Both the position numbers and the translations under genes were made by a program. Below, one piece after another: positions 43,566 to 47,801 of a DNA stretch of 64,000 bases. The number at the start of each line of letters is the position of its first letter. Position 1 is the first letter of the stretch. The notes below the pieces were generated by a model. That model was not told where the DNA came from. It did no database searches and saw only the letters and a program-made list of their open reading frames with translations. This DNA comes from a virus: positions 8,015 through 72,014 of IMG/VR virus record IMGVR_UViG_3300043313_001040, one strand, 5' to 3'.

Positions 43566-45131
43566 ATGGCGAATTACGCCCCCATCATCATCAAGAATGG
43601 GGAGCTGCAGCAGCTTCAGGCGGCCGACTCGCTTGTTGTTCCAATCCTCAATGCAAATGGTGGAAGCGGCACAAAGACCAATATCCTGTCGGTTTCCGGA
43701 CTAGCTTTAACCGATACCGGAGCTGCTTCCTCTTCAGTTAGTTCTACCTTTTCAGCAAGAGCCGCAACTGCAGGGCCTGTTGGAGGTTTAGTTCTTACCA
43801 CCTACGGTAATTCGGAAGCCACTCATCCCGGCGAAACCACGCTTAACTTTTTTGGGTCCGGAGCTATCTGCTCAGGATTCGTTATCGGGTCAAATGCTTA
43901 TCCCACACACATGCTGGATGTGTATGGGACGGGCTGGTTTCAGAATACTTTGCAGGTAGGGGATGGCACAACCTCTGCCTCGGGCGAGCTACTATTAAAT
44001 GGAGTGGCGGCTACAAATGAAGGTCCGTATATCGGCTTTCAAAAATCTGGGTCAACTAAGTGGTATGTCGGCCTCACTTCAAGGGTGATCGGCGGCACTT
44101 CGAATAGCTTTACCTTCTTTAGCCTAGCTAACGGTGAAGTGATGCGCATTGGTGCTGGCGTCAACATCGGCGGCACAACTGATCCCGGTGCAGGAGGTTT
44201 GATTATCGCTGGTAGTAATAGTTACCCCTGTGATATTTCATCATCGAATGCCACTAATGTTATCTCTCGTGTTACTTCAACTAATTCATCCAGTCTCGCG
44301 GCCTTTGATGCTGTTAATAATACCGGGTCTATAGCAGAATTTGGAGTAAGAGGTTCGGCTAGGTCTGCGTATGGCGTCTTAGTGGCCAACGACGGCTATC
44401 TTTACTCCGGTGGGCATTTAACCTTACTTGCTGATGGCTCTGGCGTTATTAAATTCGCTGCCAACGGCAACACTGAGCGAATGCGGCTTGCCTTGGGACT
44501 AAACATCGGCGGCACAACTGACCCCGGCGTGGCGAATTTATATGTTGGGAATAGTTCATCAGGGACGGGAACAAGTCATGGTATTTTCATGTTTGGTTCA
44601 AACCAATCATTTATCCGAATGTATGGGCAGACTCGCAACTGGGGGTTGCTTCAAAACAGTTTAGGGCAAGGAGATTTTGCCATATGGCAAAGTAACAGTG
44701 CCGGAACGGACACTAACGCAACTGGTTCAGACCCCTTTGCTGGAACTATTCGTTTTTTAATCGGGAGTGCCGGAGCAATTCGGTTTCCTGCTTACGGCGC
44801 AGGCACGCTTGTAACGGATTCCAGCGGTAACATTACTGCATCATCGGATGAAGCACTTAAACGAAATATCCGACCATTTACTCGCGGTCTTAAGTCTCTC
44901 TTGGGTCTCAATCCGATTACCTATCAGTGGACAAAGGAATCAGGTATGGACCCTGAAGGCGACTATACTGGGTTTGGCTCCCGTCATACTCGGACCTGCA
45001 TCCCCGAAGCCGTCAGTGAAGACCTGACATTCTCTGATAGACCAATTATCGCAGCCATGGTAAATGCGATAAAGGAACTCAACAACCGATTGGAAAAATT
45101 TGAACATGCCAACACCAACACCAACGCCTAA
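43566..45131 (+). CDS. Tail fibre with C-terminal Peptidase_S74 intramolecular chaperone
   Basis: SSDEALKRNI, LNPITYQW, MVNAIKEL..RLE; repeated MR....NIGGTTDPG. Confidence 0.88.
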   Translation: MANYAPIIIKNGELQQLQAADSLVVPILNANGGSGTKTNILSVSGLALTDTGAASSSVSSTFSARAATAGPVGGLVLTTYGNSEATHPGETTLNFFGSGAICSGFVIGSNAYPTHMLDVYGTGWFQNTLQVGDGTTSASGELLLNGVAATNEGPYIGFQKSGSTKWYVGLTSRVIGGTSNSFTFFSLANGEVMRIGAGVNIGGTTDPGAGGLIIAGSNSYPCDISSSNATNVISRVTSTNSSSLAAFDAVNNTGSIAEFGVRGSARSAYGVLVANDGYLYSGGHLTLLADGSGVIKFAANGNTERMRLALGLNIGGTTDPGVANLYVGNSSSGTGTSHGIFMFGSNQSFIRMYGQTRNWGLLQNSLGQGDFAIWQSNSAGTDTNATGSDPFAGTIRFLIGSAGAIRFPAYGAGTLVTDSSGNITASSDEALKRNIRPFTRGLKSLLGLNPITYQWTKESGMDPEGDYTGFGSRHTRTCIPEAVSEDLTFSDRPIIAAMVNAIKELNNRLEKFEHANTNTNA

Positions 45132-45330
45132 AAAAGAAGAACCCAAGATCGACTACTCGGACCCAAAGGTTTTGGACGAACAGATCGAGATGGCCACGAA
45201 AGCCCTGCGTGATATGGAGATGGAGAGTTCTTCTCGTCTGAGCTTTCTGAATGGCAATTTAAATGCCCTGAATCAAATTAAAAAAGGCCTGGCTGTTATC
45301 TTTCGAAAATCTGATGTCGACCAAAAATAA
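45106..45330 (+). CDS. Small coiled-coil protein (fibre chaperone-like)
   Basis: Follows S74 fibre; helical. Confidence 0.55.
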   Translation: MPTPTPTPKKEEPKIDYSDPKVLDEQIEMATKALRDMEMESSSRLSFLNGNLNALNQIKKGLAVIFRKSDVDQK

Positions 45331-46123
45331 ATCAGTTCTGGTTATCGAAGATCATCCGGATAGCTGCCAGGTCTTGAAGGAGATGCTGAAGCGGCGCGGG
45401 CTTCATGCCGAGTGCGCCGACACTATCAGAGAAGCCGAGAGCTGCATCATGTTTGCAGAGTCTCAGGGCAAACCGTATTCCTGCATTGTATCAGACCTTG
45501 GCCTGGGTGATTCCAATGCACTCCAGACGGTTGAGTGGCTTAAAAAAGTCTCCAACAAACTGCCGGTCCGCGCAATCTCCGGAATCCAGGACCCGGCAGT
45601 TATTGAAGCGTGCCGCACCGCCCGGATTCCCCTGATCTTGAAGGGGACAAGCGCTGAAGGCATCATGGAATCGGTGCTCTATGCGATTACCGAGCGTGAC
45701 ACGCCTCCAGATAGGGAGATCATAAATATCATAGCTGATAACAGAAAACACCAGCGCGAGGTGCACGATCCTGGGCAACCGGATAGCGGGCACCGGGATA
45801 ATGATGGTGCTTTTTCTAGTTGGTCAAAGACTGGGAAAGCGATCACCAAGTTTGGCGTTATTGTCGGAACTCTCACGGCCACTCTGACCCTCGGAGCGTG
45901 GCTGTATCGAGGACTGGAAGACCGGATTCTCGATGCAGCAAGCACTAAAACCCATCTCGCTTTAATCGACAGCAAAATCTCTGATGGAGCCGAGCAGCGA
46001 AAACAACATGGAGATAAAATCCGCGCCCTGGAAGATAACCGGCTCGAAGTAAATCTGAAGCTGACCTCCATCAACGAAAAGCTTGACCACATAGATAAGA
46101 AGTTGGATGGTCCATCCAGATGA
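45314..46123 (+). CDS. Response-regulator receiver domain fused to TM helix and coiled coil (holin/antiholin-like lysis protein)
   Basis: VLVIEDH (E12-D13), IVSDLGL (D61), ISG (S89), LK (K110); TM about 180-198; heptad C-term; first gene of lysis cassette. Confidence 0.8.
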   Translation: MSTKNKSVLVIEDHPDSCQVLKEMLKRRGLHAECADTIREAESCIMFAESQGKPYSCIVSDLGLGDSNALQTVEWLKKVSNKLPVRAISGIQDPAVIEACRTARIPLILKGTSAEGIMESVLYAITERDTPPDREIINIIADNRKHQREVHDPGQPDSGHRDNDGAFSSWSKTGKAITKFGVIVGTLTATLTLGAWLYRGLEDRILDAASTKTHLALIDSKISDGAEQRKQHGDKIRALEDNRLEVNLKLTSINEKLDHIDKKLDGPSR

Positions 46124-46368
46124 ACTGGCGCGTTAACTGGTTCGTGTTTCTTGTTCTCCCATGGCTGATCATCATTCTCGTCTGTTTGTCGAGCTGCGCT
46201 CCGATCAAGCCAAAGACAAATACGCCAGTCCCCTCGCTGACTAAAGCTACCGAGATCAATCGTTCGGTTCGTTCGAACATCGTCGACTCGAAGGATGCAA
46301 TCGGCCGAGCCCGTCGGTTGAACACGGTTATCGACAACAAGCTGAATCTTCTCCGCGATTACAAATGA
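46120..46368 (+). CDS. Lipoprotein, o-spanin-like
   Basis: Hydrophobic signal then lipobox LSSC. Confidence 0.65.
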   Translation: MNWRVNWFVFLVLPWLIIILVCLSSCAPIKPKTNTPVPSLTKATEINRSVRSNIVDSKDAIGRARRLNTVIDNKLNLLRDYK

Positions 46369-46799
46369 TCCTGAACAAGAAATGGTTTCTTATTGCGGTA
46401 ATCGTCATCGAGCTAATGGCGTTAGCTGCGGCGATGGCGCAGCAGGTTCAGTTGACCAGGGAACAGCTAATCAACCAGATCCAGGATAAAGTCCACGAGC
46501 AGGAAAAGGAGCTGGAGTTCGCTGAGAAGAAAGCCAAAGAGGCTCGCGACAATTCGGATCGCACCCACGAGGAACTCGGCCGCGCCCAGGGGCAGATCGA
46601 CCAGGTTGGCAAAGAGCGAGACGCCTGGCACCAATACGGCGACGATCAGCACGACAAGTGGATGAACGCCGAGACCCGCGTAGCCAAGGAGCAGGCAGCA
46701 GTCCTGCGGCGTAACATCATCATTATCGGATTAGTTTTGCTGATCGGATTATACGTGGTGGCCAAGATCTACTTCAAAGCTCAATTACCATTTCTATAA
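46365..46799 (+). CDS. i-spanin-like coiled-coil protein
   Basis: N-terminal signal/TM, long coiled coil, C-terminal TM. Confidence 0.6.
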   Translation: MILNKKWFLIAVIVIELMALAAAMAQQVQLTREQLINQIQDKVHEQEKELEFAEKKAKEARDNSDRTHEELGRAQGQIDQVGKERDAWHQYGDDQHDKWMNAETRVAKEQAAVLRRNIIIIGLVLLIGLYVVAKIYFKAQLPFL

Positions 46800-46801
46800 C
46801 C

Positions 46802-47131
46802 ATGGACTCAGCACCTACCCCTTCAGTGATGCAGCAGCAGAAGAACGTATTCGAGTTCATCACTGACCAGCTCGGCACTAACCCCACTGAGTCGAAGAAG
46901 TTTCTCATGGCTCTTGTTGGAATCATTGCCATTTTTCTCCAGTTCGTTGTGTCGGCAGTGTTGATGTTCTACCGCACGGACTTGGGCGCGCACTTGGTTG
47001 CGATGTTCACAATCGCCGTCCCATCGCTCGCGGGTATTGTCGCAATCTACCTCGGCGCTCAGGGTGCCGTTGAAGTCAAAGCTAATGGGGTGCTCCAGCA
47101 TCAGGCCCAGGACCTCGCTTCAAAGCTATGA
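46802..47131 (+). CDS. Holin
   Basis: SKKF then two TM helices, YLGAQG; directly before endolysin. Confidence 0.75.
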   Translation: MDSAPTPSVMQQQKNVFEFITDQLGTNPTESKKFLMALVGIIAIFLQFVVSAVLMFYRTDLGAHLVAMFTIAVPSLAGIVAIYLGAQGAVEVKANGVLQHQAQDLASKL

Positions 47132-47760
47132 GCCCATCGGAAGCTAAGGATAAGATTCGCCAGATCCAGCGCATCCTTGAAGTCAAAGATGATGGCGACT
47201 TTGGAGTCAACAGTAAGCTTGCGCTTTCCAATCTCGATAACATCAGTCGTCAGCTCCCTCAGCCATCAATCGTAACACCGCCACCAGGGTCTGGAGAGAC
47301 GCCGGTTGATCCGCGAAGCGAGAAAGCCATCGCCACGTTGCATCCACGGGTCCAGCCAATCGCTCGTCAGTTCGTGAAGCTCACGGCCGCCAATGGCATC
47401 AAGGTTGAGATCACGTCGGGCACCAGGAGTTATGCCGAGCAGCAGGCGCTCTTTGACAAGCACGATGGAACGACCCGTGCTCCGGCTGGTTATTCGAACC
47501 ACAACTTCGGTCTCGCCTTCGATGTCACGATGGATGCCGAACCGGACGACACCCTGCAGCCGGTCTGGGAATCACCGCTCTACAAGAAGCTTGGAGTGCT
47601 CGGCAAAAGCCTGGGGCTGACCTGGGGCGGCGACTGGCAAAGCATCGTGGACGAACCGCACTTTGAAGTGCGCCCTCCGTGGGCCAAAGATTTAAGCGAG
47701 ACCTCAATGATCTCGGAGCTACGACGACGCCATGCCGCAGGAATCGACGCCTTCGCCTGA
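47128..47760 (+). CDS. Endolysin, peptidase M15 (L-Ala-D-Glu, CwlK-like) with N-terminal PG-binding segment
   Basis: SGTRSYAEQ, SNHNFGLAFD, WGGDW, DEPHFE; DGDFG. Confidence 0.92.
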   Translation: MSPSEAKDKIRQIQRILEVKDDGDFGVNSKLALSNLDNISRQLPQPSIVTPPPGSGETPVDPRSEKAIATLHPRVQPIARQFVKLTAANGIKVEITSGTRSYAEQQALFDKHDGTTRAPAGYSNHNFGLAFDVTMDAEPDDTLQPVWESPLYKKLGVLGKSLGLTWGGDWQSIVDEPHFEVRPPWAKDLSETSMISELRRRHAAGIDAFA

Positions 47761-47785: not shown

Positions 47786-47801
47786 TTGCAGCGTGCTGCA
47801 A
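47786..47801. repeat. 16-bp palindrome copy 9 (intergenic, after endolysin)
   Basis: TTGCAGCGTGCTGCAA. Confidence 0.9.

What the first reader, a model, noticed from the sequence alone, without database searches (positions are those of the whole stretch)
45314..47760. Lysis cassette headed by a phosphorylatable receiver domain fused to a holin-like membrane segment
Seen: ORF 45314-46123 has a full CheY-like receiver (E12-D13 acidic pocket, phospho-acceptor D61 in IVSDLGL, S89, K110), a linker, one TM helix (about aa 180-198) and a C-terminal coiled coil. It overlaps the lipoprotein gene (ATGA) and runs into spanin-like, holin and M15 endolysin genes. No histidine kinase is present in the window. 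Known: single-TM plus coiled-coil proteins at this position are holin/antiholin-type (XhlA-like, T4 T topology), and receivers switch oligomeric state on Asp phosphorylation. Inference: lysis timing may be wired to a host two-component kinase or to acetyl-phosphate, giving a signal-gated holin or antiholin. I know of no described example.
Basis: partly seen in the sequence, partly recalled or inferred. Interest (0 to 1): 0.88.

Follow-up and report, generated by a model that had tools for sequence, protein, structure and literature searches.

The report
Phage lysis-cassette membrane protein with phospho-receiver
A soil phage fuses a bacterial-type phosphorylation switch to a membrane-spanning helical protein at the head of its host-bursting genes, which suggests, without proof, that the host's signalling state helps decide when the cell is burst.

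Summary
ORF 45314-46123 encodes a 269-aa protein. It has a genuine CheY-like receiver (Pfam PF00072 above cut-off; AlphaFold2 and Foldseek give a receiver fold), a partly disordered linker, one transmembrane helix rich in small residues, and a 70-aa coiled coil.

Stop/start overlaps or a 2-nt gap join it to a lipoprotein gene, a TM-coil-TM gene, a 2-TM holin-like gene and an M15 endolysin. The complete 72-kb phage encodes no kinase or Hpt.

The fusion is a real, rare family known only from metagenomes. In 44 full-length members (18-66% identity to the window protein), D13, D61 and K110 are invariant, E/D12 is 44/44 and T/S89 is 43/44.

The only other context I could fetch (28% identical) also lies among small membrane or lipoprotein genes and an M15 endolysin. 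Cultured Alteromonas phages V22 and A5, and uncultured phages, carry a split analogue in or near lysis genes: a free receiver beside a small membrane-anchored helical protein.

The function is untested. It is not a recognisable holin, antiholin or spanin by sequence. My best reading (0.4) is a phosphorylation-controlled regulator of lysis. The main rival is a receiver-bearing i-spanin.

This scan has noted the same theme on other DNA. I found no printed description.

The parts
43566..45131 (+). Tail-fibre gene (521 aa) that ends the structural block just upstream of the cassette.
   Evidence: PF13884 Peptidase_S74 at E 5.7e-7; phrog_5668 'tail fiber' at E 2.8e-9.
45100..45330 (+). Small ORF (76 aa, no TM segment). 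It overlaps the tail-fibre stop and the receiver gene start. Function unknown.
   Evidence: ORF list; sequence; no Pfam or PHROG match.
45314..46123 (+). Gene for the receiver-linker-TM-coiled-coil protein (269 aa).
45332..45691 (+). Receiver (REC) domain, aa 7-126. E12 and D13 form the acidic pocket, D61 (45494-45496) is the phospho-acceptor, then S89 and K110.
   Evidence: PF00072 above cut-off. AF2 fold with block pLDDT 85-96 to aa 110 and 66-69 over aa 111-130. Foldseek PDB hits to receiver domains. Conservation is 44/44 for D13, D61, K110 and E/D12, and 43/44 for T/S89.
45713..45826 (+). Linker, aa 134-171. It has a short helix with the family motif I..NR...RE, then a low-confidence stretch of variable length that ends at the conserved W170.
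   Evidence: helix 134-146; pLDDT < 50 at 135-171. (N143 26/44, R144 27/44, R148 26/44, W170 38/44).
45851..45907 (+). Transmembrane helix, aa 180-198 (FGVIVGTLTATLTLGAWLY). It is rich in small residues, with conserved G194 and Y198.
   Evidence: 44/44 members have a 19-aa window with mean KD >= 1.2, 41/44 >= 1.5, 39/44 without a charge, and a median of 10 of 19 small residues. G194 30/44, Y198 25/44.
45908..46120 (+). C-terminal coiled-coil tail, aa 199-269, predicted to be periplasmic. It carries the motifs R237-x-L-E-D-x-R243 and L257-x-R/H-I-E/D-x-K-L-D265.
   Evidence: Long helix 172-264; column counts; flank charges favour N-in.
46120..46368 (+). Lipoprotein gene (82 aa; lipobox LSSC, Cys26; 56-aa mature part). 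An o-spanin candidate.
   Evidence: Its 3 homologues all keep a lipobox and a conserved C-terminal helix.
46365..46799 (+). 144-aa protein with an N-terminal signal or TM segment, a coiled coil, and a C-terminal TM. A second candidate for the inner-membrane spanin partner, or another lysis factor.
   Evidence: TM 5-28 and 111-139. Only weak family matches. No relative found in viral contigs.
46802..47131 (+). 109-aa protein with two TM segments, overlapping the endolysin gene start. A holin candidate by position and topology only.
   Evidence: TM 32-58 and 61-86. No significant family match.
47128..47760 (+). Endolysin, an M15 peptidase (CwlK-like L-alanyl-D-glutamate endopeptidase). It has no signal or TM segment.
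   Evidence: PF13539 at 1.3e-13, PF02557 at 1e-10, phrog_2649 at 7.5e-27; names given by sources.
47786..47801 (.). 16-bp palindrome TTGCAGCGTGCTGCAA, 26 nt after the endolysin stop. It marks the end of the cassette.
   Evidence: It is one copy of a dispersed palindrome noted elsewhere in this genome.

Best explanation
The protein is a late-expressed, bitopic inner-membrane protein of a lytic soil phage. It has a cytoplasmic, phosphorylation-competent receiver, one TM helix built for helix-helix packing, and a periplasmic coiled coil.

I read it as a regulator of the lysis pathway, working like an antiholin or holin modulator rather than as the hole-former itself.

Proposed mechanism (all inferred):
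1. A host histidine kinase, a host phosphorelay protein or acetyl-phosphate phosphorylates D61.
2. The receiver dimerises through its conserved alpha4-beta5-alpha5 face.
3. Because the linker is flexible, this acts by proximity. It changes the association state of the TM and coiled-coil module.
4. That module then holds back or releases a neighbouring lysis component, either the 2-TM holin candidate or the spanin-type proteins.
5. The moment of lysis therefore depends on the host's phospho-signalling state.

Shown: the fold, the conserved phospho-acceptor site, the architecture, the family, and the place in the cassette.

Inferred: the topology, phosphorylation, the partner, and the direction of control.
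For: 1. The receiver is real and under selection as a phospho-switch. PF00072 scores above its cut-off and the model has a receiver fold. In 44 members at 18-66% identity to the window protein, D13, D61 and K110 are invariant, E/D12 is 44/44, T/S89 is 43/44 and G90 is 43/44. Alpha5 is the best-conserved helix, with a mean column conservation of 0.55 against 0.39-0.47 for alpha1 to alpha4.

2. The complete phage has no kinase or Hpt.

3. The protein is built into a five-gene lysis run coupled by ATGA overlaps and ending in an M15 endolysin.

4. The only other fetchable context is L004, which is 28% identical. Its homologue is followed by a 95-aa protein with a hydrophobic N-terminus and a Cys, then a 44-aa 2-TM protein, a 47-aa lipoprotein and a Peptidase_M15_3 gene within 2.7 kb.

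5. The linker-TM-coil module is a unit of its own. It occurs free-standing (P0089, 111 aa, E 3.2e-20 against the module HMM) and behind a different N-terminus (P0033, E 2.4e-33). In viral contig L045 a 78-aa relative (E 5.3e-7) lies between a tail-fibre-like gene and a 3-TM gene.

6. The TM is as conserved as the C-terminal half of the coil and more than the N-terminal half (0.40 against 0.41 and 0.29). It also has a conserved small-residue face. This argues for a specific TM contact rather than a plain anchor.

7. A split analogue exists in lysis regions.
   - Cultured Alteromonas phages V22 and A5 have, after the tail-fibre genes, a small hydrophobic-N-terminus plus coil protein. This is followed by a free receiver, an N-TM plus coil protein with an overlapping unannotated lipoprotein ORF, and a 2-TM protein. 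An amidase or endolysin gene lies in the same run.
   - V22's receiver is the top hit of my model among predicted viral structures (E 5.9e-7).
   - In 7 of 7 short-receiver viral loci that I examined, a one-TM helical ORF overlaps or abuts the receiver gene. A peptidoglycan hydrolase lies next to the pair in 2 of those 7.

8. A separate 2-TM holin candidate exists both here and in L004. A regulator role therefore fits better than a holin role.
Against: - There is no sequence or profile link to any characterised holin or antiholin.
- A contig-length cross-check gave no co-occurrence. None of the 12 contigs that carry close homologues appears among the contigs of the best 120 of 801 endolysin homologues, or of the 3 lipoprotein homologues.
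- In the split systems the partner's coil is predicted to be cytoplasmic, beside the receiver. In the fusion, coil and receiver are predicted to lie on opposite sides of the membrane.
- The fused module is not demonstrably homologous to the V22/A5 partner (hhalign probability 13%). The analogy therefore rests on the cassette layout only.
- The topology prediction is soft. K+R counts are equal on both flanks, and only the net charge favours N-in (+1.7 against +0.16).
- The position directly in front of a lipoprotein gene fits an i-spanin equally well.
- No experiment exists.
Confidence: 0.4

Rival explanations
1. It is the i-spanin of a two-component spanin that carries an extra cytoplasmic receiver. 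The TM anchors it in the inner membrane, and the periplasmic coiled coil binds the 82-aa outer-membrane lipoprotein encoded by the overlapping next gene. The pair fuses the membranes after the wall is degraded. The receiver would license or block this last step.
For: - The predicted N-in/C-out single-TM topology with a helical periplasmic tail matches the definition of Rz-type i-spanins in PMC6139136 (passages).
- The gene lies directly upstream of a lipobox lipoprotein gene and overlaps it by 4 bp. This is the i-spanin position in all three published gene arrangements (and section 8).
- The combined periplasmic length is about 126 residues (70 + 56). This is within the published range of 62-300.
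- In L004 the next gene (1-bp overlap) also starts with a hydrophobic segment followed by Cys and ends Pro-rich.
- There are weak Rz-like spanin PHROG hits in a few members: phrog_739 in 3, phrog_214 in 2 and phrog_312 in 2 of 44, best E 0.001.
Against: - The L004 downstream protein has the non-canonical 'LTFC' in place of a lipobox.
- A second candidate for the inner-membrane partner follows the lipoprotein gene, the 144-aa TM-coil-TM protein. [quoted passage not shown]
- In V22 and A5 the receiver module and an ordinary overlapped spanin-type pair are separate genes.
- The paper says i-spanin TMDs are the unconserved part. Here the TM is conserved.
- The spanin PHROG hits are no stronger than the XhlA or holin hits.
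- The 3 lipoprotein homologues are not on contigs of the lengths that carry the receiver homologues.
Confidence: 0.2
2. It is not a lysis protein. It is a membrane-tethered decoy receiver, or phosphate sink, that drains or diverts a host membrane kinase or phosphorelay, for example an envelope-stress or defence pathway. It merely sits at the end of the late operon.
For: - It is an orphan receiver with an intact phospho-site and no phage kinase.
- The nearest non-family matches listed are receiver stretches inside much longer multi-stretch proteins in the representative search, and NtrC-, RpfC- and Sln1-type receivers in the PDB.
- A membrane tether would raise its local concentration near membrane kinases (inference).
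- The V22 paper files its free receiver under 'class II AMG, signalling' (passage).
Against: - It does not explain the conserved periplasmic coiled coil and TM face.
- It does not explain the free-standing TM-coil relatives that lack a receiver.
- It does not explain the repeated placement of receiver modules in or beside lysis genes in unrelated phages.
- It does not explain the tight translational coupling to the lysis genes here.
Confidence: 0.15
3. It is itself the holin, a one-TM, N-in/C-out (class III, T4 T-like) hole-former. Triggering is gated by phosphorylation of its cytoplasmic domain.
For: - It has a one-TM N-in/C-out layout with a sizeable periplasmic part.
- The TM is rich in small and hydroxylated residues.
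- It sits at the head of the cassette.
- In contig L029 a small TM-coil protein, picked only by the shared C-terminal motif, lies directly in front of an M15 endolysin.
- A cytoplasmic regulatory segment on a class III pinholin has been proposed for N4 gp63, although that segment is not CheY-like (passages).
Against: - It has no homology to any holin family. Only 1 of 44 members gives a weak holin PHROG hit.
- Separate 2-TM holin candidates abut or lie near the endolysin here and in L004.
- The L029 protein matches the module HMM only through the motif it was selected by (E 0.009).
Confidence: 0.1
4. The receiver fold is used without phosphorylation, as a constitutive dimerisation or docking domain of a structural membrane protein.
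For: Phosphorylation-independent receivers are known in cellular regulators (recalled, not tested here). No phosphodonor has been identified.
Against: Such receivers usually lose parts of the acidic pocket or the T or K residues (recalled). Here all five positions are kept in 43-44 of 44 members across 18-66% identity to the window protein.
Confidence: 0.1

Closest known systems
Free receiver plus membrane-anchored helical protein in the lysis regions of cultured Alteromonas phages: vB_AmeM_PT11-V22 ORF29/ORF30 (MN877442) and vB_AemP_PT15-A5 gp10/gp11 'CheY-like protein' (OP481051).
   Same: - An orphan CheY-type receiver with no phage kinase annotated in the stretch.
- It lies after the tail-fibre genes, in one run with a spanin-type pair, a 2-TM protein and a wall hydrolase.
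- V22 ORF30 is the best structural match of my model among viral proteins and matches the family HMM at E 9.5e-11.
   Different: - Two genes there, one fused gene here.
- The partner's coil is predicted to be cytoplasmic there and periplasmic here.
- No demonstrable homology of the membrane parts (hhalign 13%).
- No BLAST-level similarity of the receivers.
- Their function is untested as well. The V22 paper lists the receiver only as a signalling AMG.
Phage T4 holin T with antiholins RI and RIII (lysis inhibition), and phage N4 pinholin gp63 with regulator gp62.
   Same: A one-TM, N-in/C-out lysis protein whose timing is set by regulatory inputs on its soluble parts. For N4, a cytoplasmic regulatory segment has been proposed (passages of PMC12642591). 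The T4 details are partly recalled.
   Different: - No sequence relation.
- The N4 'Receiver domain' is a name for a short segment, not a CheY-like fold.
- No phosphotransfer is involved in either system.
Lambda Rz/Rz1-type two-component spanins.
   Same: - Class II inner-membrane protein with a helical periplasmic domain.
- It is encoded directly upstream of an outer-membrane lipoprotein gene in the lysis cassette.
- The combined periplasmic length is in range.
   Different: - The TMD is not N-terminal, because a 170-aa cytoplasmic receiver and linker precede it.
- The TM is conserved.
- There are only weak PHROG hits.
- Binding to the lipoprotein is unknown.
Single-domain response regulators and receiver domains (CheY, DivK, Spo0F; NtrC1 and Sln1 receivers).
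   Same: The fold and all five phospho-chemistry residues.
   Different: The output is a TM helix plus an extracytoplasmic coiled coil. It is virus-encoded and has no cognate kinase gene.
Transcriptional control of lysis cassettes by response regulators, for example the PhoB-like regulator of the Yersinia entomophaga lysis cassette (PMC10101115; seen as search listing and start of abstract only).
   Same: Two-component signalling tied to a holin, endolysin and spanin cassette.
   Different: There the regulator is a DNA-binding protein acting on transcription. Here the receiver is part of a membrane protein of the cassette itself.

Membership tests
CheY-like receiver (Pfam PF00072, Response_reg) | Profile match above the curated cut-off. 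| tested here: met
   39.4 bits against 30.2, E 7.7e-10, aa 8-111. 41.4 bits in the six-frame search of the whole phage.
CheY-like receiver (Pfam PF00072, Response_reg) | (beta-alpha)5 fold. | tested here: met
   AF2 gives strands 7-11, 31-35, 57-61, 85-89 and 107-109 with five helices. Block pLDDT is 85-96 up to aa 110 and 66-69 over aa 111-130. The Foldseek PDB hits listed are receiver-domain entries, with target-normalised TM-scores up to 0.78.
CheY-like receiver (Pfam PF00072, Response_reg) | Acidic pair, phospho-acceptor Asp, Thr/Ser and Lys. | tested here: met
   E/D12 44/44, D13 44/44, D61 44/44, T/S89 43/44, K110 44/44.
CheY-like receiver (Pfam PF00072, Response_reg) | Phosphorylation on the Asp. 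| not testable with these tools
   This needs a Phos-tag or radiolabel assay with acetyl-phosphate or a kinase.
i-spanin of a two-component spanin (as defined in PMC6139136) | Class II (N-in, C-out) inner-membrane protein anchored by an N-terminal TMD. | tested here: inconclusive
   There is one TM with predicted N-in/C-out orientation. The TM starts at aa 180, after a cytoplasmic domain, so it is not N-terminal.
i-spanin of a two-component spanin (as defined in PMC6139136) | Periplasmic domain that is mainly helical or coiled coil. | tested here: met
   A continuous helix at 172-264, with a heptad pattern of hydrophobic columns at 236-264.
i-spanin of a two-component spanin (as defined in PMC6139136) | [quoted passage not shown] | tested here: met
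   A 4-bp overlap with the lipobox protein gene 46120-46368. In L004 the next gene has only a non-canonical Cys motif.
i-spanin of a two-component spanin (as defined in PMC6139136) | Sequence relation to a known i-spanin family. | tested here: not met
   The window protein has no Pfam or PHROG spanin hit. Three Rz-like spanin PHROGs are hit weakly by 3, 2 and 2 of the 44 members, best E 0.001.
i-spanin of a two-component spanin (as defined in PMC6139136) | Complex with the o-spanin, and outer-membrane disruption. | not testable with these tools
   This needs pull-down and complementation experiments.
Holin (class III, T4 T type) or XhlA-type lysis protein | Sequence or profile relation to a holin or XhlA family. 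| tested here: not met
   The window protein has no such Pfam or PHROG hit at E <= 0.1. Across the family, two XhlA-type 'hemolysin' PHROGs are hit by 2 and 1 of the 44 members and a holin PHROG by 1 of 44, all weak.
Holin (class III, T4 T type) or XhlA-type lysis protein | One TM with N-in/C-out orientation, encoded in the lysis cassette. | tested here: met
   (prediction only).
Holin (class III, T4 T type) or XhlA-type lysis protein | Forms the lethal membrane lesion that releases the endolysin. | not testable with these tools
   This needs a lysis assay. A separate 2-TM candidate (46802-47131) makes this role less likely.
Antiholin or lysis regulator (functional class) | Binds a holin or another lysis protein and shifts lysis timing. 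| not testable with these tools
   This class is defined by function only. Place and architecture are compatible with it.

The most novel reading that the evidence does not exclude
This family is the fused 'Rosetta stone' form of a widespread but undescribed phage device. In that device a CheY-type receiver, phosphorylated by host kinases or acetyl-phosphate, acts directly and post-translationally on a membrane-embedded lysis-cassette protein, so the phage reads the host's signalling or energy state to time lysis. It would be the first two-component input into a phage lysis effector, and a new output class for response regulators (TM plus extracytoplasmic coiled coil).
Probability: 0.35. Interest if true: 0.85.

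Novelty: new variant of a known kind. Interest (0 to 1): 0.68.

Why it matters
Lysis timing is the main life-history decision of a lytic phage. The known controls are the holin clock, antiholins, and lysis inhibition on superinfection.

A phosphorylatable receiver wired into the cassette would add a new kind of input, the host's two-component or acetyl-phosphate state. It would also add a new kind of response-regulator output.

The idea can be tested directly with one small protein and three point mutants. Split versions exist in cultured Alteromonas phages, so a laboratory system is already at hand.

The recurrence of receiver plus membrane-helix modules in unrelated phages (scan notes) suggests a general mechanism rather than a curiosity.

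Tried and rejected
**1. Neighbourhoods of the close homologues.** The contexts of the 12 close homologues and of the further representatives therefore stayed unseen. I used the search for related loci and the DNA search instead.

**2. Family members in public collections.**
- Viral contigs with A1 gave none, with A8 none, with A4 two receiver-only hits, and with the 144-aa protein none.
- Genome contigs with A1 gave 3 receiver-only hits in cellular kinases or regulators.
- Metagenome contigs with A1 gave 14 loci, of which only L004 is a full-length member.
- GenBank phages by tblastn gave no hit for the whole protein or for P0089. The receiver part alone gave nothing better than E 0.1.

**3. 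Alignments too diverse for pattern search.** I then used smaller alignments (A4, A6-A8) and one degenerate DNA pattern.

**4. Motif scan for RLERIEDKLD.** It returned 37 loci with small TM/coil proteins in two orientations, none of them receiver-fused. Apart from L045 (E 5.3e-7), they match the module HMM mainly through the motif they were chosen by. I do not count them as homologues.

**5. Contig-length cross-check.** No shared contig lengths turned up. The power is low, because only the best 120 of 801 endolysin homologues were listed.

**6. Complex prediction.** I submitted coiled-coil tail 196-269 with mature lipoprotein 27-82. The result was no verdict (score 0.06, mark 0.32). It counts neither for nor against binding.

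**7. Pairwise and profile comparisons.**
- The window's tail against the 144-aa protein showed no similarity.
- BLAST of the cassette proteins against V22, A5 and L004 neighbours gave nothing below E 0.1.
- hhalign of the module gave 13% against V22 ORF29/A5 gp10, 1.6% against the i-spanin-like proteins and 2.2% against the 144-aa protein.

**8. Protein atlas on aa 160-269.** The nearest clusters are small unnamed viral proteins at a score of 0.90. This is a lead only.

**9. Other checks.**
- An internal start that could make a free TM-coil form: the only in-frame start-like codons are GTG at aa 121 and aa 150, and I did not pursue them.
- Reads: a 457-nt contig of an RNA library lies on 46323-46779. 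Such libraries can hold DNA, so it is not taken as evidence of expression. Parts without cover mean nothing.

**10. Literature.**
- 'receiver domain' + holin + phage; response regulator + spanin + receiver; 'phage-encoded response regulator'; 'receiver domain' + 'lysis cassette'; response regulator/bacteriophage/acetyl phosphate/lysis timing. None describes a CheY-type receiver in a lysis protein.
- The N4 preprint's 'Receiver domain' is only a label.
Tables S1-S4 of PMC6139136 could bear on whether any listed i-spanin has a long cytoplasmic domain.

Full report
**What is in the sequence**

The window is bases 8015-72014 of a complete 72,014-base virus record with direct terminal repeats. It is a tailed phage, with a portal (phrog_21, E 2.6e-47), a major head protein (phrog_1005, E 7.2e-38), a helicase and a primase.

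At the end of the structural block, a tail-fibre gene (43566-45131) is followed by a tightly packed run on the + strand:

| Coordinates | Product |
|---|---|
| 45100-45330 | 76-aa ORF |
| 45314-46123 | the 269-aa protein in question |
| 46120-46368 | 82-aa lipoprotein (lipobox LSSC, Cys26) |
| 46365-46799 | 144-aa protein with a TM segment at each end and a coiled coil between |
| 46802-47131 | 109-aa 2-TM protein |
| 47128-47760 | M15 endolysin |

Three of the junctions are ATGA overlaps and one is a 2-nt gap. A 16-bp palindrome follows the endolysin, and a RecT-like gene starts the next block.

**The receiver is real**

- Pfam PF00072 matches aa 8-111 above its curated cut-off (39.4 against 30.2 bits).
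- AlphaFold2 with a 13-row alignment gives a (beta-alpha)5 fold. Block pLDDT is 85-96 up to residue 110 and drops to 69 and 66 over aa 111-130. A short helix lies at 134-146, a low-confidence stretch at 135-171, and one long helix at 172-264.
- The Foldseek hits listed in the PDB are receiver-domain entries. A profile search of PDB sequences gives the NtrC1, RpfC, Sln1 and DivK receivers.
- The whole phage has no HATPase_c, HisKA or Hpt match at E <= 1, and this is its only receiver.

**The fusion is a family, not an accident**

The word-indexed search found 12 full-length homologues (258-306 aa, 32-66% identity, 94-99% coverage), all from metagenome assemblies.

The exhaustive profile search found 16 representatives below E 1e-30 and 325 below 1e-10. 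Below the family, the list turns into receiver stretches inside much longer proteins.

From the 150 listed I fetched 35 whose match covered most of the profile or only its C-terminal part. I aligned 31 full-length ones with the first 13 to give A2, with 44 rows. I left out:
- P0023 (159 aa, cut after the linker);
- P0086 (lacks its N-terminus);
- P0033 and P0089 (no receiver);
- the fragments P0027 and P0050, which I did not fetch.

In A2 the invariant columns are L9, D13, D61 and K110. Position 12 is E or D in 44 of 44, position 89 is T or S in 43 of 44, and G90 is kept in 43 of 44.

All 44 have a hydrophobic 19-aa window after the receiver. Mean Kyte-Doolittle is >= 1.2 in 44, >= 1.5 in 41, and 39 have no charged residue. 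The median is 10 of 19 small residues. A tail of 70-128 aa follows.

Identical short contigs from other soil-metagenome runs bridge receiver, linker and TM without indels. The best holder may be the source sample.

**The output module**

The linker-TM-coil part has its own conserved features:
- I..NR...RE in the linker helix;
- W170 (38/44);
- G194 (30/44), G/A195 and Y198 in the TM;
- R237, L239, D241, D242 and R243 in the coil;
- a terminal L-x-R-I-E-x-K-L-D motif.

The TM is as conserved as the distal coil and more than the proximal coil (0.40, 0.41, 0.29). The module also occurs without a receiver. P0089 (111 aa) scores E 3.2e-20 and P0033 (186 aa, with another hydrophobic N-terminus) scores E 2.4e-33 against a module HMM. 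A 78-aa protein of viral contig L045 scores E 5.3e-7, and it lies between a tail-fibre-like gene and a 3-TM gene.

The net charge of the flanks (+1.7 on the N side, +0.16 on the C side, with equal K+R counts) mildly favours receiver-in, coil-out.

**Context elsewhere**

In L004 the homologue (P0028, 28% identity) is followed in order by:
- a 95-aa protein with a hydrophobic N-terminus and a Cys (1-bp overlap);
- a 44-aa 2-TM protein;
- a 449-aa repeat protein;
- a 47-aa lipoprotein;
- a Peptidase_M15_3 gene.

So 2 of 2 visible contexts hold lysis-type genes.

**A split analogue in other phages**

Notes of this scan pointed to cultured Alteromonas phages, and I checked two.

| Position | V22 (MN877442) | A5 (OP481051) |
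|---|---|---|
| Upstream | tail fibre, chaperone | tail fibre, chaperone |
| Wall hydrolase | amidase ORF28, before the pair | endolysin gp14, at the end of the run |
| Hydrophobic N-terminus plus coil | ORF29, 125 aa | gp10 |
| Receiver | ORF30, 149 aa | gp11 'CheY-like' |
| N-TM plus coil | ORF31 | gp12 |
| Overlapping lipobox ORF, not annotated | present | present |
| 2-TM protein | ORF32 | gp13 |

ORF30 matches the family HMM at E 9.5e-11. Independently of the notes, it is the top match of my model among predicted viral structures. The V22 paper lists it only as a signalling AMG (passage).

I also looked at a sample of phage receiver genes drawn by receiver motifs alone: 39 loci.
- None has the family's module (0 of 39).
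- Of the 11 short receiver ORFs (134-184 aa) I examined 7. Three of the other four look like duplicates by length, and one was not examined.
- In all 7, a one-TM helical ORF overlaps the receiver gene or lies within 41 nt of it.
- In 2 of the 7, a GH19 or SLT wall hydrolase is the next gene beside the pair. The 8 other neighbours that I scanned gave no lysin family.

**Limits of the analogy**

The fused module is not demonstrably homologous to the V22/A5 partner (hhalign 13%). In the split pairs, the residues after the partner's TM are strongly basic, which puts the coil in the cytoplasm beside the receiver. In the fusion, coil and receiver should lie on opposite sides of the membrane.

**What it does**

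No sequence method assigns the membrane part to a known lysis family. The window protein has no holin, XhlA or spanin hit. Among the 44 members, weak hits scatter over:
- unnamed TM-coil PHROGs (phrog_1009 in 6, phrog_12015 in 5);
- phrog_462 'lipoprotein' (4);
- three Rz-like spanin PHROGs (3, 2, 2);
- XhlA-type 'hemolysin' PHROGs (2, 1);
- one holin PHROG (1).

Two readings compete.

*By gene order it could be an i-spanin.* It is a predicted class II membrane protein with a helical periplasmic tail, directly in front of a lipoprotein gene. The combined periplasmic length is about 126 residues, within the published 62-300 (PMC6139136). Four points count against this:
- the conserved TM, whereas the paper describes i-spanin TMDs as the unconserved part;
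- a second candidate partner, the 144-aa protein, since the same paper allows a C-terminally anchored i-spanin;
- the separate spanin-type pair beside the receiver module in V22 and A5;
- the non-canonical Cys motif in L004.

*I therefore prefer a regulator of lysis, at 0.4.* D61 phosphorylation by a host donor would drive receiver dimerisation through the conserved alpha5 face. Across a flexible linker, that would change the association of the TM-coil module with a neighbouring lysis protein.

The i-spanin reading (0.2), a signalling decoy (0.15), a phosphorylation-gated holin (0.1) and a phosphorylation-independent use of the fold (0.1) remain open.

**Novelty**

Five full-text searches found no description of a CheY-type receiver in a phage lysis protein. 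The 'Receiver domain' of N4 gp63 is only a label.

The nearest things in print are the uncharacterised annotations in the Alteromonas phages and transcriptional control of a lysis cassette by a PhoB-like regulator (listing only).

This scan has noted split and fused receiver modules in lysis cassettes on other DNA several times. This locus is therefore one more member of a recurring, still unpublished theme, and a clean fused one. I rate it a new variant of known kinds, namely response regulators and lysis regulators, with interest 0.68.

Noticed in passing
window 46365-46799: This 144-aa protein has an N-terminal signal-like or TM segment (a possible AMA-QQ cleavage site), a coiled coil, and a C-terminal TM. 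Its gene lies after the lipoprotein gene. It could be a C-terminally anchored i-spanin of the kind that PMC6139136 only speculates about. No relatives were found in viral contigs.
   Followed up: partly
window 47786-47801: The 16-bp palindrome TTGCAGCGTGCTGCAA lies 26 nt after the endolysin stop. Other notes on this genome report about a dozen dispersed copies. Here it closes the lysis cassette.
   Followed up: no
window 45100-45330: A 76-aa ORF with no TM segment bridges the tail-fibre stop and the receiver gene start, overlapping both. It has no family match.
   Followed up: no
L059 4493-4792 (V22) and L060 4223-4555 (A5): Unannotated lipobox ORFs of 99 and 110 aa overlap the 3' ends of ORF31 and gp12, which are N-TM plus coil proteins. 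They look like overlapped two-component spanin pairs that are missing from the GenBank annotation.
   Followed up: partly
L062 7001-7645: An IMG/VR contig encodes a 214-aa protein with an N-terminal receiver followed by three predicted TM segments. This is another receiver-membrane fusion, of a different design.
   Followed up: no
L022-L058 (viral contigs): The ten-residue string RLERIEDKLD recurs in many small phage membrane proteins in two mirror layouts. One is an N-terminal TM with the motif at the C-terminus. The other has the motif at the N-terminus with a C-terminal TM, resembling XhlA or phrog_937 'hemolysin' proteins. Several lie next to endolysin or holin-type genes, as in L029 and L046.
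   Followed up: partly
L004 9218-10567: A 449-aa protein with many tandem copies of a V-S-V-S-N-F-P-A-T-Q-P-V-S-G-like unit is inserted between the small membrane genes and the lipoprotein and endolysin genes.
   Followed up: no
window 46323-46779: A 457-nt contig from a soil metatranscriptome library is identical to the 3' end of the lipoprotein gene plus most of the 144-aa gene. DNA carry-over cannot be excluded.
   Followed up: no
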